From positions 1 to 55,970 of the forward strand of contig NKIB01013530.1 in the NCBI GenBank assembly GCA_002256025.1: a stretch of 55,970 nt of DNA, given 5' to 3'. This document shows positions 7,052 to 49,675 of this stretch, one piece after another. Below the pieces are notes generated by a model that did not search any database, had not been told where the DNA came from, and saw nothing but the letters and a program-made list of their open reading frames with translations. This DNA comes from Asterionella formosa. Lineage: Eukaryota. A program made the position numbers and the translations under genes. Every line of letters begins with the position of its first letter. The first letter of the stretch is position 1.

Positions 7052-8665
7052 TTAATTGGCAACAGAGCTAACATCTAATAGATGGGGAGCGGCAAGGATG
7101 ATTCGATACAATTGGTCAATATTGTCATGAGGAACAGCGGCTGCATATTGGTATGGAAGTAAACCGCCATTTTCAGGAACAAAAAGAGCACCTGGGTATG
7201 CATGGATAAGCATTTCTAATGAAGCCCACGGTTGTCCAGATTTGATGGCAAGATGAAGGGGTAAGTGGCCGTCGCTATCTCGATAACTTGCTGTGTCAGT
7301 ACAAGATTCCAATACCAATTGGAGTGCCCTCGTTCTAATGTGTTCCGTGTCGTCTTCGAAAGATGATAACTCATGGGAAGTGATGTAATGGATGGGTAGT
7401 TTTCCATCGCCACTCCTTTCTAGGAGCTCGTGAGGATATAGTTTGGTGGAAAGTATCAATATTCCGACAGGACATCTCGGCAATGAAGCTGCCGCATGAG
7501 TCGTTCTCCATTTGGGCATTTTATGTCGGCATCTCAACAAGCGAGATAGCAGCATCCAGGTTTCAGAATCATAGCATGTAAGAGTATCCTGGAGTAAAGC
7601 TTCGTTAGTGTCTGCAACATCATGAACGACTGGGATCGATACAACAATTGAATTCGTTGCGAAGATGGGACTTAGCTCTATAATTTCGGTAGCGACCGAA
7701 ACCAGGTGAGGAGCACTTCTGAGTAGCTCGTACACCACCGTCAAAGAACAAATTTCACAGGAAGCTGCCATCTGAAACGGATAGAGGCTTGTTTCAAAGT
7801 TTCGTTGACTCAATGCATCCGGAGAAGCATAGATAAGTCGCTTCAGCTGCTCCCACGATCTTCCTGTCTCTACAGCAATATGCAGCGGAAGGCGGCCCTT
7901 TCCATCTCTGATCGTACATGCTTCTGGAAACCACTCAAGTAGAGATGTCATTTTATCAGTTGTGCCTTGTTCGATTTCACTACTGTTGCATGAATCTAAA
8001 ATCACGTGTAGTGGCATTCTACCATACTTGTCTCTTAATCGCACCTGCTCAGGGAATAACCTAAAACTGAGTTGAAGCACCTGTAATGAACAGGATGACA
8101 CCGAAGCTGCCGCATGAAGGCCGTTCCAGTCACGTATCTTCTGAGCGGAACAATAGTGAAGCATTGCGTGCAGTTTGGCCCATATTTGAGCTCCATCTCT
8201 ACCTCCCTCACAAACATATTGAACCAATGTTTCCGTATCCCCACCAAACAATCGTTCGTACGACGACCACAGTGCACAAAGGTCGTGTACATTGAGATCA
8301 CGACTGGGACGAGCATCAATGAGGAGCTGCAGAATCGCATACGGAGCTCGTCTCCAACACGCAGCGTTCATTGGACAAAATTCGTTGGGGGGACAGATCA
8401 TGGCCCCGGGAAACGCGTCCAACAGTAATTGAATCGTCTGTAACCGAGGATAATTGTCCACACGACGGGCAACCGCTCGATACAAGGGAGTTGCACCATA
8501 GATATCCTTTTGCGATGCTTCGACGGGGTGCGTTCTGATACGACTCTCGACAAGGTACCACTTGACGTTGCGTGCAACCAAGTAGCGAAGAAGGATTGTT
8601 GAGCACTCATCCTCAGCTGGTTGTGCCGTGAAGCTGGGCGATCGCGAGCGAAACCGAAGGGACAT
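7052..8665 (-). CDS. Ankyrin-like repeat protein (diatom-type DxxGxLPLH repeats)
   Basis: 537-aa ORF with repeated DIYGATPLY, DKYGRMPLH, DGKGRLPLHIA, GDGKLPIH, DSDGHLPLHLA and LYPFQMAA motifs. Confidence 0.8.
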   Translation of the reverse strand: MSLRFRSRSPSFTAQPAEDECSTILLRYLVARNVKWYLVESRIRTHPVEASQKDIYGATPLYRAVARRVDNYPRLQTIQLLLDAFPGAMICPPNEFCPMNAACWRRAPYAILQLLIDARPSRDLNVHDLCALWSSYERLFGGDTETLVQYVCEGGRDGAQIWAKLHAMLHYCSAQKIRDWNGLHAAASVSSCSLQVLQLSFRLFPEQVRLRDKYGRMPLHVILDSCNSSEIEQGTTDKMTSLLEWFPEACTIRDGKGRLPLHIAVETGRSWEQLKRLIYASPDALSQRNFETSLYPFQMAASCEICSLTVVYELLRSAPHLVSVATEIIELSPIFATNSIVVSIPVVHDVADTNEALLQDTLTCYDSETWMLLSRLLRCRHKMPKWRTTHAAASLPRCPVGILILSTKLYPHELLERSGDGKLPIHYITSHELSSFEDDTEHIRTRALQLVLESCTDTASYRDSDGHLPLHLAIKSGQPWASLEMLIHAYPGALFVPENGGLLPYQYAAAVPHDNIDQLYRIILAAPHLLDVSSVAN

Positions 8666-8859
8666 GGCAAAATCGCTAAATCACAGAAATTTTGGCAGTG
8701 AGGGGAAGAGCGAGGACTCCCTGAGACAATCACAATCACATCTTGGTCATCTATGCAAGTTCTTTGTCGTTTTTGTTCTTCATCACGGCGAGGCTTCTTT
8801 CCATTAGCTAGACTGGTTCAATTTGCGCGATTACTATTATATTTATATTTCATACCGGT

Positions 8860-9521
8860 AGTTGAAACATAGAGATTCCTGATTCCAGATCAGGTTATGA
8901 GAGTGTCAATATATTTTCATCTCTAGTGACCTGATAAGGAACATGTACCTGGTACCACAATCCACTAGAAAGGACACATGGTTAAATATCGCGTGTAAAA
9001 TGCCACAGTTGAGAGAGGAACTTTCAGGAGAAGTTTTCTCTAACCTTTTAAATGGACTCTAGGAGGCAATCAGACCTAGAGGCCAAATCAACAAGTGATT
9101 GATTAGACAATTTCAGAGAAATGTCCGCAAAATCAAGGAACATTAAAGAAGCAAACTAGATATGATCTAGTTATGGTTAACAGGATCATTCTATAAGCAG
9201 TCTTCGATCAAACAGCAATTGGCCTAAGTTGAGACAGGTCAAGATTAGACAAATGTGTATCTAGGATGAGAATGCATGTAGTTTATTCTCAGTTCAAGTT
9301 GGGAACACAAATGAACCTCACCTCCAAAGATCACCTCTATTTTGAAACATGCATGAGTTTGGAAGTTTCAAAATTATACATTCCAATTTACATTTACATT
9401 AAGCTCACTCTTTTATAAAAGCAACTATCAGCAAACAAAGTAAAACAAACAATTGTGTAGAAACAATTTTTCTAGCAATTTTTAATGCGTGAGAGCTACA
9501 GATTCGCAGCATCTACCAACT
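8860..9521. mobile_element. 662-bp interspersed element, copy 1 (solo-LTR-like; AGTTG..CAACT ends; 5-bp TSD CCGGT)
   Basis: Reverse-complement homolog of 49014-49675 over its whole length. Flanked by CCGGT at 8855-8859 and 9522-9526. Confidence 0.85.
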
Positions 9522-9908
9522 CCGGTATGATAGGGTTTTGATACATACCGGTACCGGTAGATAGACTACGGTAGTTAGTTATAGTACTGGTAGTCTCGTT
9601 TACAGTCCGGCGTACAGCTATATACCGGTATATGTTTTATTTATTGAATGTATATTCGTGGATTTACATGTCAAATGCCTACTATCCCTGGAACCGTGGT
9701 GCCTCATTGCGCTCCCATGAACAATTGTAAACTGATACCATGAGGACATGGAGATCGCTGCAATATATCATGTAGGAAATTGAATGACCAAAGCATTACC
9801 TGATAAGGGAGGAGTGCGAGCAAGCTCAACACATATCTAAGATGCCATGTAAAGCAACAGTAAAAGTGATCCAGGCTATAATATTTTTAGACAGGAACAG
9901 AATAATTC

Positions 9909-12881
9909 TTAAACCTGATAGGTCTCTTTCAGTAGCTGTCGAACATTAAGTGGCATTGACCTTTGCACTGTGCTCCACGTATCTTCTCCAGCCGATAGTT
10001 TAATATCTTGCAGCAGCTTACTTATGGAAGCCCCGAGCTCGGCTTCAGCTTGAGGAAATGGTTGAAACTGCACATTGAAAATATTGCTGCTATCTGCATC
10101 TTCCGGCATGTGCCAAGAGACAATGGCAAATAAGATGGATGTGATTGCATCTGCTGGGCTGAGAGTTGCCGACTGGATTGCACCAGGGTTGGCGTAAACA
10201 GTTTGGATAAAGCCTTGGTAGGCATCCCTTCGCTCTGTGGGATCGACTATCTTGGCCATTCCCTCACACCAACCGAGTAAGAAGCGAGGGAGATCTTTTG
10301 CCAAAAAATTAGGATCGACCTTGGCTAATCGGCCAAATGCAGTCGCTGCGTTCTCAGGTAACCCAGGTAAAATTACAGGTCTTCCATCTACACCATTACC
10401 CATCAGTAATGCTATCAAGTGCTGTACCAAGTCAGGCGCAATGGGCTCAAGGAGAGCAGGATTGCCTTGGCACTTTACGCATATTTCACCAATTGCCCAT
10501 ACAGCATTATTGCAAACGGAAGGTTGGACTGGGTCTAGGTTTTCCACCGCCGCTTTCAAAAGCTGCGGCAGGGCCGGCTCAAGTACCGCCGGTGCTCGGT
10601 TTGCCAAGTCGCCGATAACAGCGAATGCACTCATTCGCACGCCGGGAATCTCATGCTGAGTTAAAGCAACAAGAACTGTAAGAAAGAACGGTCCGTACTG
10701 GGAACTGCTAGAAACCAAGCCCGTGAAGTTGACACCTAGACCCTCAACTAGTCCATCGATGACGTCTGCTGCACAGATAATAGGATCCGCGTCTTCGTCG
10801 CTTATCTCAGCACCGGTCAAGTAAAGAGTTATGGTCTCGATCATGCCCATAGCGTTATCAAATGTTTCCAGTGCATATGGCTGGAAATTGGTGCCACAAA
10901 CCAAAGCTATGCTTGCAATACACTCCAGGAGTGGTACGAGAGTCTTATCAGTTGGATCATTCTTGGCCAAGCGATCCCACATCTGCATCAGCGGCGGAAT
11001 GTAGATTCCCGGCAGATTTCCTTCTCCAATAGCAGGTCCGACAAAGTCAGCTAAAATTCCAAGAACATCAAAAACAATCAAGATTGACTTTCCCTGATAC
11101 CTCGTCAACGCTTGGACCAATTGTTGGAAGACTGGCTCTAAATATGGAACCATAAGGTCTCCTGCACTTTCGATCAAAACCCCAAATGCAGAGCAGCAAG
11201 CAATTTGGACTCTAGTGTTTCGATCCCCAAGGCGAGCCAAAAAGACTTCAGTCATTTGGGCCAACAAATGCCCTCGAGCTCCACTTTGAACTTGTTCTAC
11301 TGCCCACGGGGCATATCTTCCTACTGTCCATGCAGCAATACTTTTGACTTGGGGTAATGTGTCTGGGGTTTCGGGCACAGCCAAGTGTCCCATCAAGTAA
11401 CCATGCAACTGACCCATATGCTGAGCCATTGCTTCGCTGCATCCTTCTGATATTGCACCGAGCGCCAGGATTGATGCTTCTTGTACCCAAGGGTCGGGGC
11501 TTGATAAACCTTCTTGCAACGCAGGTAGCAGAGGTGGTAAGATCCCTTCCGGGCCGTACATGTTCGCTAGACAATCAAGACTGGCCGCAGAACACTTTCG
11601 CAACGTCCATGCATTTCCTTCCCCATCATCAAAATCGTCCTCATCGTCGTCTTCATCTTCCTCTCCTCCCTTCTTGGCTTTGCTCCTATGGAAGACTGGC
11701 ATGAATGAGTGGTCCTTATTAGCCTTCGTTTCTAAATCCATCGCGTTTCGATATTTTAATTCGTCTTGTTGTTCCGGTAAATAAACCATGCCTCTCACTA
11801 GATATGGAATAAGTTGAGGAAGGATCTGTGCGACTTGGTGAATCATATCAGGTGTGCACGCTTCATCGTCCAACGATGCAAACGTCAACCAAAATTCGCA
11901 TGCTTCCAACGCCACATCTGGGTTGCCGATATCAGTTGTACTTTTGAGCATAAATTGGGATATCGCTTCCATATGCACTTGTAAATACTCTGTTCTCATG
12001 GAAAGTACCGTAACAATGGAGCGACATACCCACTTGCGGACTTTTGGTGATGGATCGACGGCAAGGTTGCTCAGGCCAGCCAGGTATTCATCAAAATGGG
12101 CCACCAGTGCGGAAGGCATCAAATCACCAAGTACACACGCCACAATGGATTGAAGTGCCGATGTCTTGGATCGCTCGTCAGGCGACTGCAGAAATCGCAA
12201 CAGAACTGGAATGAGGGCATCTATTTCTTCGTGACGAAGGTCGTGTGGACCATCTTCCATGATTTTCCTTACAGTGGACAAGGATCCTTCAACAACGCTA
12301 GGGTCAGACATCTGCTGCATATTCTTTAGAAGAGTCGGCATAAGTTGCGGCCAGGCTTGAACAGCGAGCGCCGGCTGAACGCTATCCGACGATACCGCGC
12401 TGGTGGCAATGACAGTGCTGGCAACATTCCTTAGTTCCTCGTGCGAGCAGCCCAAGCAGTAGAGCAAGACTTCCTTGACGTGATCTGCGGCGGGTGAAAC
12501 CAGATGCAGCGATCTTCCATCGGTCAATATGGGTGGCCTTAGCAACGCTTGCTTTAGAATGAGTCCGGCCATTTGACCAAACGGCGTCCAGAGAGACTCG
12601 TCCTGTTGGAGGCGCATCGCGGTGACTGGGTCCGTTCGAGTCCATTGCTCGAGTTGTTCCGGTGAAATTCGTCGAATCATTTGAGCAGGTTGGTCTGTGC
12701 CAGCCATTAGGTAGACGAGCTGAACACACAGGTTTCCATATGATTCTAGAGACGAGGAGAGTGCATCATCACGTGCCCGAATCGCTTGCACATGCAGTTC
12801 GTGGTTCTGCGTGTTTGACAAGGCTGCCACTAGCAGCAGAACCTGACCTTCAGGTGCTGGAGGAAGGAGGGGAGAGGTCAT
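9909..12881 (-). CDS. TNPO1: Transportin-1 (importin beta-2 / karyopherin beta2)
   Basis: 990-aa HEAT-repeat ORF. VALEACEFW, the acidic H8 loop (EEDEDDDEDDFDD) followed by WTLRKCSAASLD, ILALGAISEGC, and SVCNNAVWAIGEI. Confidence 0.93.
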   Translation of the reverse strand: MTSPLLPPAPEGQVLLLVAALSNTQNHELHVQAIRARDDALSSSLESYGNLCVQLVYLMAGTDQPAQMIRRISPEQLEQWTRTDPVTAMRLQQDESLWTPFGQMAGLILKQALLRPPILTDGRSLHLVSPAADHVKEVLLYCLGCSHEELRNVASTVIATSAVSSDSVQPALAVQAWPQLMPTLLKNMQQMSDPSVVEGSLSTVRKIMEDGPHDLRHEEIDALIPVLLRFLQSPDERSKTSALQSIVACVLGDLMPSALVAHFDEYLAGLSNLAVDPSPKVRKWVCRSIVTVLSMRTEYLQVHMEAISQFMLKSTTDIGNPDVALEACEFWLTFASLDDEACTPDMIHQVAQILPQLIPYLVRGMVYLPEQQDELKYRNAMDLETKANKDHSFMPVFHRSKAKKGGEEDEDDDEDDFDDGEGNAWTLRKCSAASLDCLANMYGPEGILPPLLPALQEGLSSPDPWVQEASILALGAISEGCSEAMAQHMGQLHGYLMGHLAVPETPDTLPQVKSIAAWTVGRYAPWAVEQVQSGARGHLLAQMTEVFLARLGDRNTRVQIACCSAFGVLIESAGDLMVPYLEPVFQQLVQALTRYQGKSILIVFDVLGILADFVGPAIGEGNLPGIYIPPLMQMWDRLAKNDPTDKTLVPLLECIASIALVCGTNFQPYALETFDNAMGMIETITLYLTGAEISDEDADPIICAADVIDGLVEGLGVNFTGLVSSSSQYGPFFLTVLVALTQHEIPGVRMSAFAVIGDLANRAPAVLEPALPQLLKAAVENLDPVQPSVCNNAVWAIGEICVKCQGNPALLEPIAPDLVQHLIALLMGNGVDGRPVILPGLPENAATAFGRLAKVDPNFLAKDLPRFLLGWCEGMAKIVDPTERRDAYQGFIQTVYANPGAIQSATLSPADAITSILFAIVSWHMPEDADSSNIFNVQFQPFPQAEAELGASISKLLQDIKLSAGEDTWSTVQRSMPLNVRQLLKETYQV

Positions 12882-13447
12882 GATTACTGCTGTGTATCGT
12901 CACCGCAAGGAGTAAAGATGGAAGGCAGGAATTAGGGAAGTGGTCACGTTCGATGCAACCGTCCAAGACAATGCTAATGATCTGATCTGCTCTGCTCTGC
13001 TCATCACTCAAATTAGTTTCGAAGGGTTTTATGACCGGATGGAAGCACGGCGCATTTGCATTGTCACACCAGCCATTGGATGACGACGATTGTATGTGGT
13101 GCATATTGTTCCTATGTGCAGATGTACAGTATCTCGTATACGACATTCATGACCGTGTACCGGTATCAGGTACCAGATACCCTGGTACGTGGTACAAGGA
13201 TGATACCGATTTAATTGTTACGTATATTCCTACCAGTAGACTAACTACCTGCTACCGGCATGTCCATAAAGATGATGATGAGAATGGATTTAATTAGTGG
13301 GCGGCTCCATTCTGTGTTCTGGGACAGTTGGACAGGTCTAGGAACACCATTGCCTGCGAAACCTGCGATGTACCGGTATTTGTATTTGTGCGATATCTCT
13401 CGCTAATTAACGCTACAAGATTCATCACCAAAACGGCTACCGGTACA

Positions 13448-18094: not shown

Positions 18095-18483
18095 CATCAG
18101 AAACGGGAAATACCCTCAGCAAATTTCGACGAAAGAAATCTCTCAATAATGACGTTAACTGGTAAGTCTTCCCTGCGGTGGTTCTTCAACTACGGAAATA
18201 GGCAACCAGGTAAATTCAATGGGAATGAAGTTAGAAATCGGAGTCCTTCGGTAGTGACGTATATATAAATATATATTGCTCTTATTCCCATCAGAAACGG
18301 GAAATACCCTCAGATAACCTTATTCACATTGACTTTACCTGGTTGCCTATTGCCGCAGTTGGAGAACCAACGAAGGGAAGATTTACCAGTTAACTTCATT
18401 ATTGAGAGATTTCTTACGTCGAAATTTGCTGAGGGTATTTCCTGTTTCTGATGGCAATAAAAGCAATAAATTTATCGTCACCA
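18095..18483. repeat. Foldback structure: ~140-bp arms (18095-18233 vs 18314-18453, inverted) built from a 194-bp tandem unit
   Basis: CATCAGAAACGGGAAATACCCTCAG occurs at 18095 and 18289. Its near reverse complement ends at 18453, and the arms align along their full length. Confidence 0.85.
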
Positions 18484-20123
18484 TGTGTGAAAATGGGATA
18501 TTTAACGTTTCTAGCTAAGTAAAAAATTGATTTTATATTTGATTATGATCAATCCGAGCAATTATTAACTATTATGGTTCATTAGAAACACACCTTCATT
18601 GGCCTTATTCACCATTGAGAAGGACGACGACTGTGTTCCTGAGGATACCAGTCCATTCAGAGGTATTCTTGCTCAATGTTACTGCTAGTACAATGTACTC
18701 GATGTTCACCGGTGCTTTGATAGAAGCCTCTCTGGCTCTTAAATGAAACAAGAAAATAATTGTGGAGTTGGTAAGTTCATGATACCCTATTCGACAGTAT
18801 CTTGTTGTTGTTAATTGTTATTTGCCATAATGTCCTGCAGTTTTTCTTGAACTTACGAAAGTAATCACAGTGGATGATGCAATTTTAAGGAGAAATTGTA
18901 TGGAAGGTGAACTGATGGGGCATGGGACCACAGGTCAGGCAGGAAGAATAACTCAGCAATCAGCTGGTGATCGTTCAATAATCAATTCATGAGGAGGCAG
19001 CAATATGTTCAGGAACTGGCAGGACGATTTTGGAAAGGGTAGGACAAGGGTTTCATGTGCAGCAGGGAGGGAGGAGGGGTGGTCGTTTGGCCTGTCCCAT
19101 AAAGTCATGTTGGCTGGTGACAGCATCCAAAAATAACCGAAATATCCCATTTTTGAGAAGGACAAACTATCGTCCATGAAGCTTTGTAGATGTGGTTTCT
19201 AAAAATATAGAGTTTTTACCTACTGCTGTCTAGCTAATAAGCTTTTTCTAGAAAGCAACAACGACATCTTAATTAGCTTTCATCCTGGAAAAGAATTGTT
19301 CTAGCTTGTAAGCAAATGCAAGCGATTCACATGGTGAATACCATGGTGAGTCGGAGTTTCAGCCATCGAAACTTGGGGCAAAAAAGGATTTGGTCGATTA
19401 TCATCAGATAAAGTTGAGAAACTAAAAGAATCGCTTCTTTTAAAGAAATACATGACGTTCCTGTAGGTGACATAGGGGACCAAAAATCTTATCCGCAATG
19501 ACATGTGCTCCATGTGTAGGACGAAAAAAATATATTGCCATATTTATGGTTATGTTTGGTAATTTATGCAATGCTATTGCCCTGGCATCTGAATTCTATC
19601 TGTACCAATATTACTAAGTGCTCCATTTGTAAGAATATTGGGGTTTTACCAGAGAATACGATTCTGTGAGGGTCAGATGCACAAATAGACGTGGTGACAC
19701 CAAAGACTTATGACTTCTGTAAGCAAGCAAGCCGTCAAGAATCATATACTGCTGGTGTTGTTGTAGCAGTTATGCATTAAGCTTGCTGCATTTGAACCCC
19801 TAGATCGAGGTAGGCTAATCAAACACATAATTTTCATGTTTTAAATAAATATTTACATTGCAACTTGGAGCTTTCACCATTGGACACCCTTTCCATATGC
19901 TTAGACAGTATGTACAGTCATTTTTAAAAGTATGTGTATAGGAAAACTCTTTATGTTATCAGGATATAGAATCTGGCAAGAAAGTGCAGGATCGAACTTA
20001 AGTTTTTTACTATGCTGTAATCACTAGAATTTATTGGGCCAAACAGTTTATTCGGCAAAGTAAAAAAGAAGTTCCTTTCTGCAATTTCTTTCCAAAAGTT
20101 AACTTCTATGCCTCTGCATATAA

Positions 20124-20470
20124 AAACCATCATATTCCTATGATGCATCATAGGATTATGATCATCTGGTCATAATTTTTCGTTATATCATCGAACAATT
20201 TTGATAAATGCCCTCGTAATTTAAATAGTCACCCTTTTGACTATGGAAATTTAATTATCGTCTGCAAATAAAAACCATCATATTACTATGATGCATCATG
20301 GGATTATGATCATCTGATCATAATTTTTCGTTATATCATCTAATAATTTTGATAAATGCCCTCGTAGTTTAAATAGTAACCCTTTTGACTATGGAAATTT
20401 AACTATTATATGTATTGTTTCTTTTAGGTTCCTTTACTTAAATTTCTTGGTAGGATAATGTACCAGTTAA
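20124..20470. repeat. Dispersed ~130-200-bp repeat, two tandem copies here; further copies at ~21832-22035 and ~27613-27820
   Basis: Shared core GATTATGATCATCTGATCATAATTTTT..TTTGATAAATGCCC..TTTAAATAGTAACCCTTTTGAC. The minus strand reads LVHYPTKKF..SKGLLFKLxGHLSK..DDIxKNYDQMI. Confidence 0.8.
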
Positions 20471-21329
20471 ATTAATGTGGCTTGGCTCATCATCCTCGCC
20501 AGTCCTCACTCTGATTCTTGCAACAACGACAAAGCAGCCATGTCGAGAGGAACAAGTGTTTGTGATAAAATCTTCATTTGTCGTTCAAGTCATCATATGT
20601 CTTCGATGAATCATCATCTACATTGCACAGTATGTTGCTTCGTACTATGCAATCCGTTAAGAGCTTGAAAAGAAATCCAATGAAAACGAAATGGCTCATC
20701 ACACAAGACGAATATTTCCGGCCAGTCTGTCACCAGAGCATCGATTAGTGTTACAACCTCAATCATAGCTAAACAACATGCATCCATTATAGAACAGCAC
20801 AATCTAGTTCTATATTACATCGTCTCTCTCTAACGAGAACATAATACATTTAGAATTGAAACGCAGCATAGGAGGCGATATGCACAAAGAAGCAAGATAC
20901 TGTCTATTTATACTAACAGAGTGATTCTGGTTTCATAATTTTCATGTCTCATTAGATTTCCTTTGTCATCATACTGTTTCCTTACCTTTGAAGACAGTAG
21001 CGTATTCTTTGATGCATCTAGAATGTTTCAATGGATGGCAGCAGTTGGATTTAGACATAAAACTCGACAAAAGCAGTACTTTGTAGATGTTCATGAAAAG
21101 CCAGACACTTTGGCCTATTGACCACCAGCCAGTCCACACTGCAAAAATGCAAGAAGCATGCACAAGTTGAATGCCCATTTATGGATTCAAGTTTCAGTAG
21201 TGCAACAATGTAAAATATTAGAAACCGGAAGTCACATTTCATCAAATTACGGTTTTCATTAGCTATACTAGCTAGTATTGATTGAGAGGAAGTAATGGTG
21301 GAATGCCAAACAGGCGGGATCAAACAACA

Positions 21330-21826
21330 CAGAGAAGCCTAATTTTTCTCCCCAGTGATCCCAGACCCTCTTGGATGTCACTTGCTACAGAAAATGGAGA
21401 ACAGCCGCCATGATCTGTTGATTGTTGCTGTATGGTCCCACTGACCGATACCTCCAGAAATCTCAATGAGTTGCTTGTTTCTTGACTTGAATACCAAAGG
21501 CATTGAAACCAGTGGAAAAAGCAAAAGGGAACTAATAATTCTCTGCAAACATCAGGACAATTGTGAACGAGAAAGGAAAGGTTGGGAGGTGAAGTTAAGG
21601 GATTATTGCTGGTCTTGCGGGAACAAGGATGGATTGACCCAATCAATGTTGACAAATAGATACCTACCGGAAAAATGAAGCAATGCTTTTGGCATCATCA
21701 ATTTATATACAAGCCTGCGCCACCTGACGTCAATATAGCTACCTCGATTCCTTCTTCATCAATGAAGAAAGTATGATGGGCGGAGCATGTGAGAAAGTCG
21801 GCGTTGAGGTGAGCCGTTTGTCTCCA
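21330..21826 (+). pseudogene. Fragment of an IS630/Tc1-type DDE transposase
   Basis: Frameshifted pieces FLPSDPRPSWMS, KGWEVK/KGLLLVLREQGWIDP and FINEESMM..VGVEVSRLSP resemble the GWEGKxKGLxQVLWERGWID..DFxxExS..GVxVDRTPK region of stramenopile/fungal Tc1-like transposases. Confidence 0.6.
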
Positions 21827-22036
21827 ATTAAAAATATCATATTCCCATGATGCATCATAGGATTGTGATGATCTGATCATAATTTTTCGTTAAATCATCT
21901 AATGACTTTGATAAATGCCCTTTTAATTTAAATAGTAACCCTTTTGACTACATATATTTAATCATTATATGTATTGTTTCTATTAGATTTCCTGTGTTCG
22001 AATTTCTTGGTAGGATAATGTACCAGCTAAAGTAAC

Positions 22037-22810
22037 AGCGATAACTCTAGCAAGTACAAAATAGAAAAAGAAGCAAAGGATGAGCAGCTGTCATCGATTG
22101 AATTCGCAAAATAGTTTAGAAACAGCTGTTATATATTTTAACATTCAATGCATGTCGCTGTAGTGAGATTTGCCGCAATGGCCTTCTCCGTTTTGGAGCA
22201 GCTACAAACAGTCTACAGCGATAACTTTAGCAAGTACAATATAGAAAAAAAAGGAAAAAGGATGAGTAGCTGACAACAATTGAATTTGTAAATTCGTTAA
22301 GAAATAGCTGTTGCATATTTTTAGTATTCAATACATGTCGCTGTAGTGACTCGAAATTGAGATGTGCCGCAATGGCCGTCTCCTTCCCGGAGCGGCCACA
22401 AATAGTCTACATCGATAACTCTAACAAGAGCAATATAGAAAAATAATCAGAGGAGGAGCAGGTGTCAACTATTGAATTCGTAAATTTGATTAGGAACAGC
22501 TGTTGCATATTTTAACATTCAATGCATGTCGCCGTAGTGAGTCGAAATTGAGATGTGTCATAATGTCCTTCTCCGGTTTGGAGCAGATAGCAATAGTCTG
22601 AAGCGATAACTTTAGCAAGCACAATATAGAAAAAAAGCAAAGGATGAGTAGCTGACAGCAATTTAATTCGTAAATTTGTTAAGAAACAGCTGTTACATAT
22701 TTAGCATTCATTGTATGTCGCCATAGTGAGTCAAAATTGAGATGTGCCGCAATGGTATTCTCCTTTTCCGATCGGCTAGATTACATCTATATTGATAACT
22801 GTAGCAATAA
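22037..22810. repeat. Tandem array A, ~190-bp unit, 4 full copies plus the start of a fifth
   Basis: Anchor GATAACT at 22040, 22220, 22414, 22605 and 22794 (spacing 180, 194, 191, 189). Units align throughout. Confidence 0.9.
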
Positions 22811-23089
22811 TAAATTGGTCGTAAAGTCAAGGGCAAAGGAGATGAGGATTATAAACTTCATTGAATTCAACCACTCCATAGCTAACATGTTTTTTCGCAA
22901 TATTTCGCACTTTTTCTGTACACCACCAGTCAATAAAAAATATTTGCTGATGTCTGATTTGACCAATGAAACTCTTAGCAGCTTAGTAGATGGATGCCAT
23001 TTGGTAGAAAATAATAGCTTTGAGTTTTGGTGCACCCCTGCTGATGTACTAACTATCATCATGGCAAACTAGCACATCCTATGGTAGTG

Positions 23090-25075
23090 GATAAAAGTCG
23101 GCTTTAAATTGGTGGAGAAAGGCTGTTTGGAATTTTTGTTGCCACAGCACTTATGATCAATGCACAGCAAGCACCGAAAATTTACACACCCTCTTGGCTG
23201 ATGACCAAAATCGATCAATATACGTTTGTTCTGAGAATATTGATATTCGAAATGACGGCAGTGATCTCGTGTACATCGAATACTATGCTGGATAGAAATC
23301 GGCCTTAAATTGGTGGAGACAGATGGTTTGGAATTTTTGTAACGACAGCACTGGCTAATGATCAGTCCAAAAGCAAAGTAAATTTACACACATCCTGCCT
23401 GATGTCTCCTTTGATCAATATATGTCCGTTCCAAGAATATCGACATTCGAAATGACAACATTGATGTCTTGTGCATTGAAAACTATGTTGATAAAAATCG
23501 GCTTTAAATTGGTGGAGAAAGGAGGTTTGGAATTCTTGTTGCCACAGCACTGCTGATCAGTCCACAAGCATCCAAACATTTTACTCATCCTGATGCCTCC
23601 ATTGATCAAGATATAGTATTTCTGAGAATATCTACATTGTCGATGACGACTTTGATCTCGTGTACATCAAAAACTTTGTTTGATAGAAATCGGTCTTAAA
23701 TTGGTGGAGAAAGATGGTTTGGAATACTGGTCATGCGCGCAGCAGTCCAAAAGAACCGAAATTTTACACATCTTGATGAACAATTTGATCAATATATGTT
23801 CGTTCTGAGAAATCATGATTCGAAATGATGGCACTGATACACATCTTGATGACCAATTTGATCAATATATGTTCATTCTGAGAATATTGTTATTCGAAAT
23901 GACGGCACTGTTCTCGTGTACATCGAATACTATGCTGGATATAAATCGGCCTTATATTGGTGGAAAAATTTGCAACCACAGCACTGTTGTTCAGTTCACA
24001 GCAAGCACCGAAATTTTACACACCATCCTGATGACCAATTTGATCAATATATGTTCATTCTGAGAATATCGACACTCTCCATGACGGCATTGATCTCGCG
24101 TACATCAAATACTATGCTAGATAGAAATCAGCCTTAAAATCGTGGAGCAACATGGTTCGGAATTTCCGTTGCAACAGCACTGGTCATGCAGCAGTCCACA
24201 GCAAGCAGCGAAAAATTACACACCATCCTGATGACCAATTCGATTTATATACCATGTTCGTTCTGAGAATATCATGCTTCGAAATGACGGCGGTGATCTC
24301 GTGTACATCGAATACTATGCTGGATAAAAATGAGCCTTTAATTGGTGGAGAAAGATGGTTTGGAATTTTTGGAATTTTTGTAATCACAGCACTGATGTTC
24401 AGTCCACAGCGAGCACCGAAATTTTATACACCATCCTGATGACCAATTCAATTAATATATGTTTATTCTAAGAATATCGACATTCGCCATGTCGGTATTG
24501 ATCTTGTGTATATCGAATACTATTCTAGATAGAAATTAGCCTTAAAACGGTGGAGCAAGATGGTTTGGAAATTTTGTTGTCACAGCACTTACAATCAGTC
24601 CACAAGCACCAAAAATTTTATTTCACATCCTGATGAACAATTTGATCAAAATATGTTCCTTCTTGTTAGTATATCGACATTCATTATGACGGCATTGCTG
24701 TCGTGTTCATCGAATACTATGAATGATATAAATTAGATTTAAATTAGTGGAGAAAGATGGATTGGAATTTTATTGCCACAGCACTGATGATCAGTCCACA
24801 AGCATCTGAAAAATACACATCCGGATGCCTCCTTTGATTAATTTATGTTCGTTTTGATCTCAACATTCGACATGACTGCATTGATTTCGTGTACATCAAA
24901 TACTATGCTAGATAGAAATTGGCCTTAAATTGGTTGAGAAGGGTTATTTGGAATTTTTGTTGCTTCTGCACTAATGATCAAGCCACAAGTTCCGAAAATT
25001 TACACACCATCCTGATGACCAGCCATTTGATCAATGTATGATCGTTCTGAGCGAGCATATCGACATTCAATATAA
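23090..25075. repeat. Tandem array B, ~195-bp unit, about 10 diverged copies
   Basis: GGTGGAG-like anchor at 23111, 23312, 23511, 23703, 23959, 24141, 24344, 24549, 24746 and 24932. One unit carries an extra partial duplication. Confidence 0.9.
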
Positions 25076-25130
25076 CGCCATTTCGTTCTTCCTCTTACTT
25101 GTGCCGTTTGTAATTGGAAAAGTGGTCAGT

Positions 25131-25815
25131 CATGAACTTACTCTGCAAACCTTGTTCTTTTCCTACAGACAATCAATCTGTTTTTGGCAGGGCGGGGTTG
25201 AACCTTGGGAATAATGAAATGCGTCGTGCTCTCAGGAAGGCTATCCTGCTGTGTCATGCAGGCTAACAATCATCTTTTATTCGCATTGTTTAAAGGATTC
25301 CTCTGGTGCATAGGGGGCAAATATATACATGGTAATCAAGTGCAATGTTTTCTTGCCTTCTGCTGTTATTGTTTGCTGTTGCTTGTTGTGGGCGGATCTC
25401 CTCTCCTATGCCTTCGTCTTTGTTCGGAATTGTTAGCGCAAGCATTGCTTCTTTGTAATGAATTAGAAGAAGGGCTTGATTGTGTGCTTGTTAATTGATG
25501 ATCACGAACTTACTCTGCAAATGCTGTTCTTTGTCTATAAGCAATCAATCTGTTGAGCAAGGGATTTGTTGGGAATCAGGCGGCATGGTAAGCACAACGA
25601 GAACGATGCCTTTGTAACAATTGTTTGTCCATGAACTCACTCTGCGACCGTTGTTCACTGATTGCAGACAATCAATTTGATGAGGGCTGGGTTGTACATT
25701 GGGGAACATGTTAAGGAGCACAATAGAACCGAAATCATGGCTTCGCAACTTTTGTTTTCTCATCAACTCACTCTGCAAATGTTGACCTCTTTCTACAACA
25801 GACAATCAATCTGAG
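25131..25815 (-). pseudogene. Array of four homologous micro-exons (36, 36, 36, 39 nt) with flanking splice signals
   Basis: Minus-strand units AG|ATTGATTG..GCAGA|GT(A/G)AGT at 25772-25810, 25641-25676 (acceptor mutated to AA), 25514-25549 and 25142-25177. Predicted introns of 95 and 91 nt. Confidence 0.65.
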
Positions 25816-26019
25816 CAATGAGAATGAGCAGCCGGCTCATTTGCTATGAATTGATCTACCGATAGTTGCAACAGGGACATCAAAGTAAAGATAAAATGGG
25901 AGCAAACAAACTGAATTAATGGTAGTTAGAGTGAATAATATTTTTAGATGGAAATGTTGCGAATTGTCGAGAAAAGTACCGTATTATAGAGATTATTACT
26001 GAACAAATTTTTCTTTGTG

Positions 26020-26278
26020 TGGCCAGAAAATATTGTCAGTTGGCCCCAAAAATTATGTGGGTTTCTAAAATAATTATGGAAGTTGTCGAAACTATTTTAG
26101 TTCACTCCCTTCATTTATATTGTACGATGCATCATATTTTTTATGTGATGTCATACCCATAAATTATGTTCGTAACTAAATTCGTCATATTGGGCCACCC
26201 AAATAATTAAATTGGATGATCATATTTGACTAGCGTTTTTTTCTGGCGGCTGTACCAGTAATCGGCGTTGTAGATTTA
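26020..26278. mobile_element. Inverted homolog of 45155-45395 (subterminal region of a CCCTGC-ended DNA transposon family)
   Basis: Reverse complement aligns through ATCTACAACG..TGGTACAGC..TTTGGGTGGCCCA..TATGACGAA..AAACCCACATAA..TTTTGGGGC. Confidence 0.7.
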
Positions 26279-26281
26279 ATC

Positions 26282-29238
26282 GTCATGTGCAGTGAACCCA
26301 TGTTCATAATCATCCAATTAAGAGTTTACAGAGAAGAAATCATTCGAACTCGTAATGGTTCCACACACAGTGCAAATAATAAATCCGTTTCGTCGACCAC
26401 CAGCATTACAATCTAGCCAATCAACTCATAAACAAACACACTCTACTTGCTCTCGTTGACATTTTCAATTCTCACATGATACTAGATTTTCAGCATAGAA
26501 ATAGGTTCAAAAATGTAACAGACTGCTGTCCACTTTTTTATAGTCATAGTTATAGAATGATTCTGATTACATTTTCTTTTTCATATCGCTCGTTTCCGCA
26601 TTTGGGATGTTGTTCTTGTATTAACTGTTGAACTTTTCTGCATCCTTGTTACCATCAATAGAGTGTTAAGTGGCTCTCTTCGTTGTTGTTTGCTCATGGA
26701 AAACCCGCCTGGTAGCTATCCATATCATCATCAATAGAGGGATGAATGTCCTTTATCATTATCATTGTGGTTCACCGCTGGAAAAATTGGTATCCGTATT
26801 GTCATTTGCTTGTTGGAACTGTCCGTTGCCTCAAACCTGCTAAGCGTGTGTGTACACACATTGGTATGTTGTTCTTGTATTCACTGTTGAACTTTTCCGC
26901 ATCTTTGTTACCATCAATAGAGGGACGATTGGCTCTGTTCATTGTTGTTTGCTCCTGGAAAAGTCGGTGTCCGTGTCATCAGCAATAAAGGGACAAGTGT
27001 CCTTCACCATTGTGGTTTACCGCTGAAAAGATTGGTACCCATATTGTCATTTGCTCGTTGGAAATATCCATTGCCTCAAAGCTGCAAAGCGTGTGCATAC
27101 GTACACTGTCTACTTACAGTAGTAACTTAGCTACTAAAGTGCGTGTTACAATATCATACTCCGTAGTACGATGCAGAATACAGTTCCCAATCAACATTGA
27201 ATGATTGAAAAGATGATAATGTGATATCACGATAGGGTTACTTCGATGCATACATCACCAAAATATGATACGTAATATTGAATAATGTTTATCACATAGC
27301 TATGATACATTGATCATAGAACTATGATTTCTTAAAATGTTTATGATATATCTTTAATCAAATATGATCATCTTAAAAGAATACAATGGTAATAAAATTC
27401 TATAAAATATGCACGCAAGTGTTATCAATACATCATAGAAGAAAGATCAATCAATCATAAAGCATATTAGTTAATATATATATTCGACTTTAAATGTATA
27501 CAGTAAAAGCAAATAGTTAATATGATAGTATTAAATGGTGAATAGTATCTAAGTATACGGATGCGTTGATATGTACATCACCATAGTATGATTTGTGCGT
27601 CTGTAAATAAAAACTATCATATTTCCATGATGAATCATAGGATTGTGATCATCTGATCATAATTTTTAATTATATCATCTAATGATTTTGATAAATGCCC
27701 TTGTAATTTAAATAGTAACCCTTTTGACCACATATACTTAATTTTCATATCTATTGTTTCTATTAGATTCCTGTATTCGAATTTCTTGTCAGGATAATAT
27801 ACCAGCTGAAGTAATGTAATTTGGCTCGTCATTTCCATCCGTCATCACTCTAATTTTTGCAACAACAACGAAATACTAGCGATGACAGGTGGAATGATTG
27901 TTTGCGATAACAACGTCTTCAATTGTTGGTCATGTGATCATTATATATTTGAGTAATTGTCATGTGCAGTGAGCCTTTGTTCATAATCATTCAAGTAAGA
28001 GTTTACAGAGAAGAAATCATTCAAACTTGTAATGGTTCCGCACACAGCGCACATTGTGAATCTGTTTCGTCGACTTCAGCATTACAATCTCGTTAATCAA
28101 CCCATAAACAAACACGTTCTACTTGTTCTCGATGACATTTTCAATTCTCACATGATACTACATCTACTATTGAGATTCAGCATAGAAGGAGCTACGAAAA
28201 TGTAACAGACTACTGTCCACATAGCTATAGTTATAGAATGATTCTAATTACAATTCCTTCTTCATGTCGCTCGTTTCTGCATTTGGCATGCTGTACTTGT
28301 CTTTACTATTTAACTTGTCTGCATCTTTGATGCCATCAAGAGATCGAAAGCAAGTGGCTCACTTCATTGTTGTTTGCTCGTAGGAAATATTTGATATCCG
28401 TATCGTCATTTGCTTGTTGGAACTGTCCGTTGCCTCAAACCTGCTTGGCGTGTGCGTACACACACTGCCGACTTGTTTTCATTGGTATGTTGTTCTTGTA
28501 TTCACTGTTGAACTTGTCCGCATCTTTGTTACCATCAATAGAGCGACAAGTGGCCTGGCTCTCTTCATTGTTGTTTGCTCCTGGAAAAGTCGGGTGTCCG
28601 TGTCATCCTCATCAATAGAGGGAGAGGGACAGGTGTCCTTCATCATTGCGGTTTGCCGCTGGAAAAATCGGTACCCGTAGTATCGTCATTCGCTCGTTGG
28701 AACCACTTTCCGTTGCCTCAAACCTGATTAGCGTGTGTGCATGTGCACTGTCGACTTGTTTACAATGCAGGAGTGACTTAGCTACTAAAGTGCGTGTTAT
28801 AATATCATACTCCGTAGTACGATGCAGAATACTACAGTTCCCAATCATCTCATCATGATTGAAAAGATGATAATGTGATATCACGACAGGTTTACATCGA
28901 TGCATACATCACCAAAGTATGATACATAATAATGAATAAAGTTTATCACATAGCTATGATGCATTGATCATAGAACTGTGATGATTTCTTGAAATGTTTA
29001 TGATATAATTTTGATCAAAATATGATCATGTTAAAATAATACAATGACAATAAAATGTACGCAAGTGTTATCGATACATCACAGAAAACAAATAAATCAT
29101 AATTATGTTACTTAATATATAAATTCGACTTTTAATGTATACAGTAAAAGCCAACTGTTATTATGATAGTATTATATGGTGGATAGGATCAAAGTATACG
29201 GATGCGTTGATATGTATATCACTATAATATGATTTGTG
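26282..29238. repeat. Diverged ~1.3-kb direct duplication (26282-27597 and 27959-29238), each copy with internal ~250-bp sub-repeats and a decayed minus-strand ORF
   Basis: Both copies start GTCATGTGCAGTGA and end GTATACGGATGCGTTGATATGTA..TATGATTTGTG. The minus strand gives repeated SIDGNKDAEKFNSEYKNNIP. Confidence 0.85.
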
Positions 29239-37167: not shown

Positions 37168-38600
37168 CCACTTAAAAACTGTTAGCCACCGTTGTTTTAC
37201 TCTATCTTTCGACTAACAATATTTATGTAATTCAACGATCAAAGCTTGATGCAAGTACAAAGCTATGTTAGAGAATGCTCTCTGCTATACTATTCAGGAA
37301 TCAGTTTTGATACAGTGCATCTAGCCATGAAGAAATAATTTTTCCAAGTCACTAAGATTATTGCATAGCGGTGGCTTGCAGTGTATATTTTTCTATGTGT
37401 ACATGTATATATTTTCCCCCCAAACTGTGATTATTTTTACTCCGTTAATACTACAATAATTTATTTTCTTATTACTTCACGTTTTACACTTTTGCAGGGC
37501 AGCTTCGTCATCGTTGGAGAATTCTTCTGATGCATTACATTAATCTCAAGCTTCTTTGCATCCAATTACTTGCTTGCGGAGTCTCAAGCTTCTTCATGGA
37601 ATGGTGGATTTACAGTAGCAGTTGTAGAAGGACAGAGAATAGAAACAGGAGGAGGTGCAGTAACAACAACAACAGCAATAGGAGATGTATGGAGAGGGAA
37701 TGGCGGCTGCTGGTTACCACAGTGATTGGTGTTGTCGAATCTTGTAATCAGAGCTTGCCTTGTTTGTGGAATTGGCAAATCACCTGATTGTTTGTACCAA
37801 CGCACCATTAATTTCAATTCTGGCACAGACATCTGTTCTTTTGTTTTGTTCTGTTCCTTCAATGTAAGTACTTTTCCGCGAAGTAAATTGAATTCTTGTT
37901 GCCTTTTTGTTTCTTTTGTACTAATGACAATGTCTGAAAATCGCTTCTGTTCCAGTGTAACAGCAAGAATATTTGGCCCAAGGGCAAAGGTTTGCAGAGG
38001 CCAGTATTCCTGCTGCTATCCTCTTCTTGCGTCCCTCAATGTGTGAATCCGCTGTCTCCTTTCTCTTTCTAACAACCGTTTTGCTCACTACTATCTCCAA
38101 CCTGCCAGTAGCTTGTACCATAAGGAACACCAATACAGACTGTCCAATTGTGTTCTGGGTTGTTTATGTATTCAAGGAGCAAAATGTCAAATCGAGACCC
38201 ATGTCCATCAAGTATTAGGAATGGTGGGGGCCCGTTGTTTTGAGGAAAGATGCCAGAGTCATCCATGTGCTTTAGCATGCCAACCAGAAGCTCTGCAGTG
38301 ATTGAGCCATTTTCCGCACACAGCAGTATGTAGGCAACTGTTTCCCTTCCACATCACAGACTGTTCCTTGTGGATATTGTTTTCCCTTTCCACTGTTGCC
38401 ATTTATGTTTTCATCTTCTCCTTCCCAAGCAGCAAATGGATCTAGGCCAAGCTTCTAGTTCCCTAATCACATTGTTAAGACAAATCTGAACAATGACCAA
38501 CTCTGCAGGAGACAATTTTTTTCGAGGCAAGGCATTGCCTTGTTGAGGCGCTTTCGAGGTCATGATGTTGGTATTGTGATGGGTGATGGGTGATTTTTGT
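37168..38600 (-). mobile_element. Truncated pogo-like (DDE_1) DNA transposon with transposase pseudogene
   Basis: TA|CCACTTAAAAACTG TIR at 37168. About 370 bp shared with 48184-48560. The minus strand gives PFLILDGHGSRF..CIGVPYGTSYWQVGDSSEQNG and a C-terminal ELKLMVRWYKQSGDLPIP. No second TIR found. Confidence 0.85.
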
Positions 38601-41697: not shown

Positions 41698-42399
41698 GGA
41701 CTGTTATGACTTCTCTTCACATTCTAATCATGACTGTGAATTGTGTTATTCCTTTTCCCACAAGTATTTAAGTGGCTGGTCAATGTAAACAGTATTTGGT
41801 GATATGTAGATGTACTCAATGAATACATGTATGTTAAATTTCTTTCAATCAATTTATTTAGATGCTAATGAAATATTTAATGATTGCAAGTTCAAACTCA
41901 TGTGTATGTAACTCATGAAAACGCATTTTTACAAGTAAACCGACCCTCACATAGAAAAATGGTTTGTAGTCTACGTTATCCGTCCCAAAATAAGCTGCTT
42001 GGCACTGAGGGTTCCGACATAATTCATGTGACTGTTATTGGAAGGAGGGAGTACTACTGGTAACTGGTACCTAACATCTAAATACACACAGTGGTATAAA
42101 TTTGTAAATAGTGGGCGCGCTCTGATAATAAAAAATTATTATATCATGTGTGTATTATTGCACAAATTATTCTGGTGATCTGCTACATAATATCGTCCTT
42201 GCGCTCTGATAATAGAGATATTTTAGATTACTTCTCTGACATTATATATATTTTTAACTTTAATTTTCAACAGTTAAATTTTCATATCGATGCATCCTCT
42301 TGTATGCTATGCCGCCTCTTGTTCATTATGTGCATGAGTTCTATATATTCATCATTGTTGGTCACTGACCATGTTGACTTTCATCTCATCTCATCTCCT

Positions 42400-43603
42400 G
42401 ATGATGATGATGATGATGATGATGATGACATTATGATCACATTGCTACTGTTAGCAATGTGCTATCCACCAGTAAATAAGACGCCATCGTTCAGGGAAAG
42501 TTTGACTGTTGATGAGGTCAGAAGAAGAAGTGGCAAAATCCGTTGCCACGCACTACAGTATCCATTATCGAGTTCATTCTGGACTTTGTTCAACAGCAAG
42601 CATGATGATGCTCTGATTACCTTGTGTGGGTTTGACCATTCTTCTTTCCAGCTCCTACACCAGCTGTTCAAACCTTGTTTTTATTCCTTCACTCCCTGTA
42701 GGAAAAAATGGATTTCATTGTTAGAAATTCAACAACAAAGAAAGGTCGGCAAAGATACCTCTGTTGCTTCCATCAGTTGTCTAGCGCTTGGGTTAGCATG
42801 GACCAGGACTCGTGGTTCCTATATGATTCTTCAGATTATTTTCGAATTAACTCATGGTTCTTTGAGTGTTTGGTTGAGGTTTTCAAGGCAAATGATTGTG
42901 AAAGTACTTCTGACACCACATGAAGCTGCCGTTGTGGTGAGACTGCCTACTGCAGAAGAAGCCACCTTGTTTACAACCATGATCAATCAGAAATTCTCAC
43001 TTATAACAAGTTGTTGGGGAGCAATGGATGGTCTGAAACTGACCCTGCAATGGGCTGGAAATGAAACACAGCAGAACAACATCTACAACGGATCATGGAC
43101 TCATGAACACTATGTGACAAACTTGTTTCTTTTTTTTGCCTGATGGCAAAATTCGCTGCTCATATTTCAATGCACCTGGTGTTCTACATGACTCCACCAT
43201 GGCAACTTGGTCATCGATCTATGATCAGATTGAAACAGTTTACAGGGATATAGGTTAAAAAATAGTTGTGAATTCAGCATTTGCATCTAAGAAATCAAAT
43301 GCAATGTTGAAATCGCATTATAATAATGTTGATGCAAATGGTAATCCTCGACAAAGATTTGGTATGAATCGCCAAGCCAACTAAATTTGACAGCTGTCGG
43401 AATGGGGAATGCGATGCCTTCAGGGATCGTTTCCGAGAATCAAAGACAAATTTCGTTATGAAGAAAAAGGTGAGAGAAAAATAATTCTCCAAATGATTGT
43501 ATTGCTCTACAACTCTTGTGCTAGCAAAGTTGATCAGTACCAAATTGCTTCAGTGCTATATATGCCCTATTTGCATAGGAATGCAAATAGATATGCCATG
43601 TAA
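42400..43603 (+). pseudogene. Harbinger DDE transposase (DDE_Tnp_4/HARBI1-like) with frameshifts and a stop
   Basis: LALGLAWTRTRG, WGAMDGLKL, YNG.WTHEHYVTNLF, PDGKI..NAPGVLHDS, VVNSAF and EWGMRCLQGSFPRIKD. A (GAT)n run at 42400-42429 gives poly-Asp. 5' boundary approximate. Confidence 0.85.
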
Positions 43604-43671
43604 TTCAAAGAAATAATTCATTCATGATTATTTACCACCACTTCTTTCATTTTATATTAGAATGAATTAAT

Positions 43672-48083: not shown

Positions 48084-48183
48084 CATTCAATACTTTTGTA
48101 CAGTTTAAAACGGATGACGGATTCTGATGGTTCATACCGTACTTAGCTTGAGGTCGGTACGTGATGCATTGGATGTACCAGTA

Positions 48184-48931: not shown

Positions 48932-49013
48932 TACCAGGCACCAGGTACCTGATAGGCACCTGACATCGAGCATTGATGTACCGGTAGATAAATAGAGAAT
49001 TATACTGGACGGT

Positions 49014-49675
49014 AGTTGGTAGATGCTATGTATCTGTAGCTCTCACGCAGTAAAATTTGCTAGAAAAAATGTTTCTACACAATTTGTTTGTTTTACTTTG
49101 CTTGCTAATAATTGTTTTTATAAAAGAGTGAGCTTAATGTAAATGTAAATTTAAATGTATAATTTTGAAACTTCCAAGCTCATGTATGTTTCAAAATAGA
49201 GGTGATCTTCGGAGGCGAGGTTCATATGTGTTCCCAACTTGAACTGAGAATAAACTACATCCTCTTCCTAAATACACATTTGTCTTAATCTTGGCCTTGT
49301 CTCAACTTAGGCCAGATGCTGTTTGATCGAAGACTGCTAACAGAATGATCCTGTTAATCATAACTAGATCATATCTAGTTTGCTTCTTTAATGTTCCTTG
49401 ATGTTGCGGACATATCTGTAATTGTCTAGTCAATCATTTATTGATTTGGCTTCTAGGTCTGATCGCCTTCTAGAGTCCAATTAACAGGTTAGAGAGAACT
49501 TCTCCTGAAAGTTCCTCTCTCAACTGTGGCATTTTACACGCGATATTTAACCATGTAATCTTGAATCAATCATCTAGTGGGTTGTGGTACATGTTCCTAA
49601 TCAGGTCACTAGAGGCGAAAATATATTGACACTCATAACCTGATCTGGAATCAGGAATCTCTATGTGTTTCAACT
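49014..49675. mobile_element. 662-bp interspersed element, copy 2 (AGTTG..CAACT ends; 5-bp TSD ACGGT), inverted relative to copy 1
   Basis: Flanked by ACGGT at 49009-49013 and 49676-49680. TATAAAAG at ~49119 and AATAAA at ~49249 on the plus strand. Confidence 0.85.

What the first reader, a model, noticed from the sequence alone, without database searches (positions are those of the whole stretch)
8855..9526. Solo-LTR-like element with non-canonical AG..CT termini and 5-bp TSDs
Seen: two 662-bp copies (8860-9521 and 49014-49675). Both are bounded by the 5-bp inverted repeat AGTTG..CAACT, and each has its own perfect 5-bp TSD (CCGGT; ACGGT). There is no ORF and no long TIR, and a TATAAAAG precedes an AATAAA. 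Established: 5-bp TSDs with TGTTG..CAACA ends typify Ty1/copia LTRs, while AGT..ACT ends are known mainly from insect errantiviruses. Inference: these are solo LTRs of a diatom retrotransposon lineage whose integrase uses AG..CT ends. Standard TG..CA LTR finders would miss such a lineage.
Basis: partly seen in the sequence, partly recalled or inferred. Interest (0 to 1): 0.7.

Follow-up and report, generated by a model that had tools for sequence, protein, structure and literature searches.

The report
Diatom Copia solo LTRs, AG..CT ends
These two 662-base repeats are leftover end pieces (solo LTRs) of a Copia-type jumping gene of a diatom whose ends read AG...CT instead of the usual TG...CA, an uncommon variant that software demanding TG...CA would miss.

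Summary
Confirmed, with two corrections: the copies lie on opposite strands (89% alike), and the TATA-then-AATAAA order holds only on the antisense strand. Both are LTRs of a Ty1/copia family with at least 40 matches in this diatom genome: 17 of 30 loci read are lone LTRs with a perfect 5-bp duplication, 30 of 30 end CT, none TG..CA. A full-length copy has paired LTRs and a shared duplication; an intact metagenome copy shows gag and PR-IN-RT pol, a primer site matching the 5' half of the host tRNA-Met, and a polypurine tract. Sister families also start AG and end CT or GT, while relatives with the same primer site and tract end TG..CA: only the outermost base pair is swapped. One origin of the AG ends is neither shown nor rejected; no integrase residue tracked them. 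Non-TGCA Copia ends are in print (TG..CT, AA..CA; three CoDi families lack TG/CA, ends unseen); I found no AG..CT Copia in my searches. This scan noted the same ends before on three other contigs of this genome. New variant of a known kind; interest 0.4.

The parts
8855..8859 (.). left target-site duplication of copy 1 (CCGGT)
8860..9521 (+). solo LTR, copy 1 (AGTTG...CAACT); older copy, about 90% identical to its best other match
9400..9407 (+). TAAGCTCA motif shared with the LTRs of sister families B, C and E; candidate promoter element (inferred)
9414..9421 (+). [quoted passage not shown]
9522..9526 (.). right target-site duplication of copy 1 (CCGGT)
49009..49013 (.). target-site duplication of copy 2 (ACGGT)
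49014..49675 (-). solo LTR, copy 2, inverted; younger copy, 98% identical to other genomic copies and 97.4% to the 3' LTR of the intact element L199
49676..49680 (.). target-site duplication of copy 2 (ACGGT)

Best explanation
Both repeats are solo LTRs of an autonomous Ty1/copia retrotransposon family of a diatom. Shown: the family's full structure is LTR - primer site - gag - pol (protease, integrase, reverse transcriptase, RNase H) - polypurine tract - LTR; the primer site starts at the base after the LTR's last T and is complementary to the 5' half of the host tRNA-Met; the tract ends at the base before the LTR's first A; insertions carry 5-bp duplications directly outside AG and CT. Inferred from known Copia biology: a half tRNA primes the minus strand and the tract the plus strand, giving a cDNA with no spare bases to trim, so the integrase joins a 3'-terminal T (not the usual A of CA) on both strands across a 5-bp staggered cut; later recombination between the two LTRs of an inserted copy left one LTR between the duplications. 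The ends differ from canonical relatives by one swapped base pair at each end (T>A at the start, A>T at the end), fixed in the lineage and accepted or preferred by its integrase.
For: 17 of 30 loci lone LTR with perfect 5-bp duplication, 5 with polypurine tract on the left, 3 with primer site on the right, 3 at contig ends, 2 unclassified; AG start in 28 of 28 readable, CT end in 30 of 30. Full-length L057: LTRs 97.3% identical, shared ACCTT. Intact L199: 687-codon frame with zf-CCHC, 1313-codon frame with Pol_BBD and gag_pre-integrs (both under the curated cut-off), SH3_retrovirus and RVT_2 (over it) in Copia order; HHCC and D-D-E nearly invariant in 76 sequences, model pLDDT 83.5 whose best PDB matches are retroviral intasomes. 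Primer site matches two tRNA-Met genes over 20 bases in L009. Controls: the same primer site is preceded by T at 20, A at 16, G at 4 places, and all 15 of the 16 A places read end CA; relatives of 40-46% protein identity have the same tract followed by TG (3 of 3 readable) and CA before the primer site (3 of 3 readable).
Against: No integrase residue separates AG from TG elements in 24 rows read by eye. AG families are not shown to be one clade (best trees need 3 changes, 0 of 200 bootstrap trees have 1; p-AU 0.21 for RT-RNase H and 0.050 for integrase). The assembly is fragmented and can collapse a whole element into one LTR: L002 (duplication on both sides) and L009 (primer site on the right) share a left flank at 424 of 425 bases. 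RNase H was recognised by recalled motifs only, and Pfam rve did not match the integrase core. Only 40 of 175 candidates were scored and 30 read.
Confidence: 0.88

Rival explanations
1. The copies are true LTRs, but one or both window loci hold a whole element that the short-read assembly collapsed into a single LTR.
For: L002/L009 show one locus assembled both ways; copy 2 is 98% identical to many young LTRs, including ones next to a tract or primer site.
Against: Copy 1 is about 10% away from every other scored copy, including all that flank internal sequence; contigs of four runs laid on 7400-11000 listed no loose end into a primer site or tract at copy 1 (80 loose ends not shown). Copy 2 was not tested with reads.
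Confidence: 0.15
2. The integrase has not switched specificity but merely tolerates other end bases; A...T ends became fixed by descent or arose several times.
For: The next-to-last base varies (CT in families A, B, D, E; GT in C, F, H); family G of the same large clade has TG and TA starts; no diagnostic integrase residue; monophyly unproven. In lotus, Copia elements with the same odd end are not always monophyletic (PMC9804982, passages).
Against: Both outermost bases changed and stay complementary in families whose RT regions are only 46-56% identical to family A (D, E); 30 of 30 family A copies keep the final T.
Confidence: 0.3
3. The outermost bases come from the primers: the tRNA fragment ends in an A (the tRNA reads ...CATAACC then CA, so its own later A with one C bulged out, or an added A making a CCA end) that pairs with the LTR's last T, and the first A is the last base of the polypurine primer; RNase H leaves one ribo-A on each cDNA 5' end.
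For: Both changes are exactly those that lengthen a primer by one pairing base (T before GG; a purine after the tract); the final T is constant while its neighbour varies. Errantiviruses have similar AGT..AnT ends (PMC5408687, passage); overlap of their primer site with the LTR is recalled, not checked.
Against: The tRNA base that follows the 20-base match is C, which does not pair with T; relatives with the identical primer site and tract end CA and start TG; I saw no report of A-extended half-tRNA primers in the passages read.
Confidence: 0.12
4. A MITE or other non-autonomous DNA transposon moved by a DDE transposase.
For: No ORF, short inverted ends, target duplication, many dispersed copies.
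Against: The same 662-mer flanks gag-pol as a direct pair and abuts a primer site and a polypurine tract; the terminal inverted repeat is only 5 bp.
Confidence: 0.01

Closest known systems
CoDi elements (Ty1/copia of diatoms; Maumus et al. 2009, PMC2806351; abstract, section 7 and passages read, supplement not readable)
   Same: Diatom host, Copia order, two-ORF layout, LTR length (153-844 bp reported) and element length (5.2-8.1 kb reported; about 7.5 kb inferred for an intact copy from L199). The paper states that TG/CA is missing in CoDi3.2, CoDi4.2 and CoDi4.3.
   Different: The passages read do not say what those three families end in, so AG..CT may or may not be among them. No reference CoDi sequence could be put in my trees. 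CoDi-A (with CoDi4.3) is tabulated with a chromodomain and no CCHC (PMC2774666 supplement 3); this family has one CCHC and no chromodomain hit.
Drosophila copia and yeast Ty5 (half-tRNA priming; PMC5371799, passages)
   Same: Primer site complementary to the anticodon half of a tRNA-Met, directly next to the LTR.
   Different: Ends read AG..CT instead of TG..CA; host and RT lineage differ; priming itself not tested here.
Plant non-TGCA Copia elements (Ou and Jiang, 10.1101/137141, passages; lotus, PMC9804982, passages; Rosaceae TGTT and AACA, PMC5659011, abstract and section 12)
   Same: Copia elements with 3' ends CT, GT or TT, or a 5' start with A (AA..CA), flanked by normal duplications.
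   Different: Two surveys report the first base as always T; the A-starting AACA type ends CA and is not palindromic. Here both outermost bases are changed together and stay complementary, in several diverged families, with LTRs of 390-870 bp.
Insect errantiviruses (gypsy, ZAM, Idefix; PMC5408687 and PMC3601003, passages)
   Same: LTR ends AGT...AnT in place of TG..CA.
   Different: Ty3/gypsy order with integrase last and an env frame; this family has integrase before RT and only about 25 bases between pol and the 3' LTR. A convergence of end sequence, not kinship.

Membership tests
Ty1/copia LTR retrotransposon | Direct LTR pair with shared target duplication around gag-pol | tested here: met
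   L057: 97.3% identical LTRs, ACCTT on both sides
Ty1/copia LTR retrotransposon | pol order protease-integrase-RT-RNase H, RT of the RVT_2 type | tested here: met
   P0003/L199: Pol_BBD 62-141, gag_pre-integrs 207-263, SH3 474-541, RVT_2 815-1056; integrase fold; RNase H by recalled motif only
Ty1/copia LTR retrotransposon | Primer site after the 5' LTR and polypurine tract before the 3' LTR | tested here: met
   3 and 5 of 30 loci; both in L199
Ty1/copia LTR retrotransposon | TG..CA ends (typical, with published exceptions, so not taken as defining) | tested here: not met
   0 of 30 loci
Solo LTR | Single LTR between matching duplications, no internal sequence at the locus | tested here: met
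   Both copies in the assembly; collapse by the assembler not excluded without long reads
Half-tRNA-primed Copia (copia, Ty5; Hemivirus-like) | Primer site complementary to the 5' half of initiator tRNA-Met | tested here: met
   20-base match in L009 to two tRNA-Met genes; most family A copies have one extra base in the site; initiator identity read from recalled features
Half-tRNA-primed Copia (copia, Ty5; Hemivirus-like) | Priming by a cleaved tRNA fragment | not testable with these tools
   needs particle RNA
CoDi (CoDi1-7 / CoDi-A to D) | Diatom host | tested here: met
   nearest named relatives of the gene at 9909-12899 are pennate diatoms; RT relatives include Fistulifera and Chaetoceros records
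CoDi (CoDi1-7 / CoDi-A to D) | RT clusters with reference CoDi sequences of a named group | not testable with these tools
   no named CoDi reference was among the 120 listed hits; supplement of PMC2806351 not readable
CoDi-A | Chromodomain at the integrase C-terminus | tested here: not met
   no chromodomain hit at E 0.05 in P0003; the CoDi-A domain is only putative, so Pfam could miss it
Errantivirus | Ty3/gypsy domain order and env frame | tested here: not met
   integrase precedes RT; pol ends at 6231 and the LTR starts at 6259 in L199
MITE / DDE DNA transposon | Terminal inverted repeats and a cognate transposase element | tested here: not met
   5-bp inverted repeat only; longer copies hold gag-pol

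The most novel reading that the evidence does not exclude
A broad, undescribed group of diatom Copia elements joins a 3'-terminal T at both ends, and these A...T ends are set by the primers themselves (an A-ended half tRNA and an A-ended polypurine primer each leaving one base), the same route by which insect errantiviruses would have reached AGT..ACT independently. Canonical and swapped families using the same tRNA half and the same tract sit side by side in one genome, a natural pair for testing why integrases need CA.
Probability: 0.12. Interest if true: 0.7.

Novelty: new variant of a known kind. Interest (0 to 1): 0.4.

Why it matters
The terminal CA is treated as the near-universal integrase signal, and two plant surveys call the first T invariable. 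Here several diverged Copia families keep a symmetric A...T end, with canonical relatives using the same primers as controls, so end recognition can be tested directly. In practice, LTR finders set to TG..CA or to the T-starting exception list would drop these families from diatom repeat annotations. The two window copies themselves are inert relics.

Tried and rejected
TATA-then-AATAAA as the LTR promoter and poly(A) signal: antisense only. A shifted boundary (TG..CA hidden three bases inside): the 5-bp duplication lies outside AG/CT in 17 of 30 loci, and family B has no CA near its right end. A full-length tRNA primer (T+GG as the CCA complement): the site matches the anticodon half, not a 3' end. 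Diagnostic integrase residue: none seen. One origin of AG ends: not shown, not rejected; rows dropped from those trees were near-copies, short or badly broken rows (7 of 25 and 9 of 24); the 118-row tree is the quick one only. Strict target consensus: none in 17 sites, only a lean to C/A at position 2 and G/T at position 4. Empty site for copy 1: no joint skipping the LTR in 4 runs; contigs show presence, not absence. Viral contigs: 0 relatives among 23 candidates. Sequence searches of solved structures found nothing useful. Placement among named CoDi groups failed for want of references. A look-up of earlier findings by the LTR sequence gave nothing.

Full report
Observation. The window holds two 662-bp copies, 8860-9521 and 49014-49675, each reading AGTTG...CAACT between perfect 5-bp duplications CCGGT and ACGGT. 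The second is inverted and 89% identical (44 substitutions and 30 gap columns in 677). The perfect terminal inverted repeat is 5 bp and the longest stop-free frame 61 codons. Copy 1 lies about 195 bp upstream of the likely start of an ankyrin-repeat gene and about 390 bp downstream of a transportin-like frame, both on the minus strand; that frame's nearest named relatives are pennate diatoms.

The family. A search of the own genome (68 Mb, 15,436 contigs) gave 40 matches of 40 scored among 175 candidates; 30 were read. Seventeen are lone LTRs with a perfect 5-bp duplication (both window copies among them), 5 have a polypurine tract on the left, 3 a primer site on the right, 3 touch a contig end and 2 are unclassified; 28 of 28 readable starts are AG and 30 of 30 ends CT. 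Duplications of 4 or 6 bp occur in 0 of 30. L057 is a full-length, decayed copy: LTRs 97.3% identical, 8743 bp, ACCTT on both sides. [quoted passage not shown] Pfam places a protease-type barrel and the pre-integrase domain (both under the curated cut-off), the SH3 domain and RVT_2 in Copia order. Pfam rve missed the core, but HHCC and D-D-E are nearly invariant in 76 aligned sequences and the predicted structure matches retroviral intasomes best. Copy 2 differs from the L199 LTR at 14 of 659 sites and copy 1 at 38 of 645, so copy 1 is the older relic; its right junction is bridged by contigs of two runs from other studies, its left junction only by the possible source run, and no empty site was seen in 4 runs.

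Where the odd ends come from. The primer site begins at the base after the final T and matches the 5' half of two tRNA-Met genes over 20 bases in L009; the next tRNA base is C and does not pair with that T. Half-tRNA priming is described for copia and Ty5 (PMC5371799, passages). In this genome the same site is preceded by T at 20 places, A at 16 and G at 4, two of them the tRNA genes; all 15 A places read end in CA (1 of 16 not fetched). Relatives of 40-46% protein identity on contigs filed in prokaryote bins (probably eukaryotic contaminants, my inference) have the same tract followed by TG in 3 of 3 readable cases and CA before the primer site in 3 of 3. So geometry and primers are unchanged and only the outermost base pair is swapped.

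Sister families. B: AG start in 22 of 25 loci, ACT end in at least 15, 4 with a perfect duplication; C: AG start in 19 of 25, GT end in 20, 2 lone LTRs with a duplication and one full-length pair with CCATG. D is full-length, AGCCG...TTCGCT, duplication CCAGG; E reads AGTCAG...CTGACT, with no duplication tested. H starts AGTT and ends CAAGT in 2 of 2; F ends CAAGT and its start is unclear. Family G of the same large RT clade reads TG or TA...CA, and distant Copia families start TG. A, B and C form a clade at 100/99-100 in both careful trees; D, E and F are unresolved, and one clade of AG elements is neither shown nor rejected (p-AU 0.21 and 0.050). No integrase residue tracked the end type.

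Mechanism. Shown: structure, boundaries, duplication length, primer complementarity, integrase fold. Inferred from established Copia biology (recalled): blunt cDNA without trimmed bases, joining of a 3' T at both ends, solo LTRs by recombination between LTRs. Open: whether the integrase prefers the T, merely tolerates it, or receives it from the primers. A caution on 'solo': L002 and L009 share a left flank at 424 of 425 bases yet continue into a duplication and a primer site, so collapse by the assembler is possible, more for copy 2.

What is known. Maumus et al. 2009 state that TG/CA is missing in CoDi3.2, 4.2 and 4.3 (PMC2806351, passage); their table could not be read and may hold these ends. 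Plant surveys list non-TGCA Copia ends, TG..CT and TG..GT among them, with the first base always T (10.1101/137141; PMC9804982; passages), but AA..CA Copia families are described (PMC5659011, abstract and section 12). Errantiviruses have AGT..AnT (PMC5408687; PMC3601003; passages). Nine full-text searches and passages of two diatom genome papers (PMC8147415; 10.1101/2025.10.24.684338) showed no AG..CT Copia; the library lacks most subscription papers and Repbase. PMC2774666 (passages and supplements 2 and 3), PMC5445492 (passages) and PMC1635307 (passages) did not settle the point.

Earlier notes of this scan. Three report the same ends on other contigs of this genome; by length they correspond to L057, the family C pair and family D, which I had fetched and read myself. 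The phrase 'swap of the outermost base pair' is taken from e1-7577389 and was tested here with other controls.

Verdict. Real solo LTRs of a diatom Copia family with AG..CT ends; a new variant of a known kind, possibly already present unremarked among the CoDi families of 2009. Interest 0.4.

Noticed in passing
L199:2289-2311: gag and pol frames are in the same phase, parted by a single TGA; pol could be made by read-through or from its own start.
   Followed up: no
window 42026-44885: 117-bp inverted arms (91%) enclosing 2.6 kb with a DUF6818 match at about 44298-44702; looks like a DNA transposon.
   Followed up: partly
window 48181-48934: 31-bp inverted arms 692 bp apart, about 80 bp from copy 2; part of it recurs at 37339-37466; MITE-like.
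   Followed up: no
window 18095-18471: 139-bp inverted arms with a short spacer, a hairpin-type element.
   Followed up: no
window 20113-29238: Several arrays of 148-, 191- and about 200-bp units and a 1.65-kb duplication, without long frames.
   Followed up: no
L148 and L116 (G000 C13064, C971): Full-length distant TG-starting Copia elements appear to have 6-bp rather than 5-bp target duplications (2 of the 5 pairs looked at; the other 3 showed no duplication).
   Followed up: no
L002 and L009 (G000 C1339, C1872): One flank assembled once with a solo LTR and once with an LTR running into the primer site: solo and full-length alleles, or an assembly collapse.
   Followed up: partly
L212-L226: A CA-ending group (three clusters) uses the same half-tRNA primer site but did not match the 5' regions of the AG families.
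   Followed up: partly
L203, L207, L209, L210: Contigs in prokaryote genome bins hold near-whole Copia elements of this clade, probably eukaryotic contamination.
   Followed up: no
whole window: ACCGGT occurs 30 times against about 9 expected from base composition; it is frequent beside the insertions.
   Followed up: no
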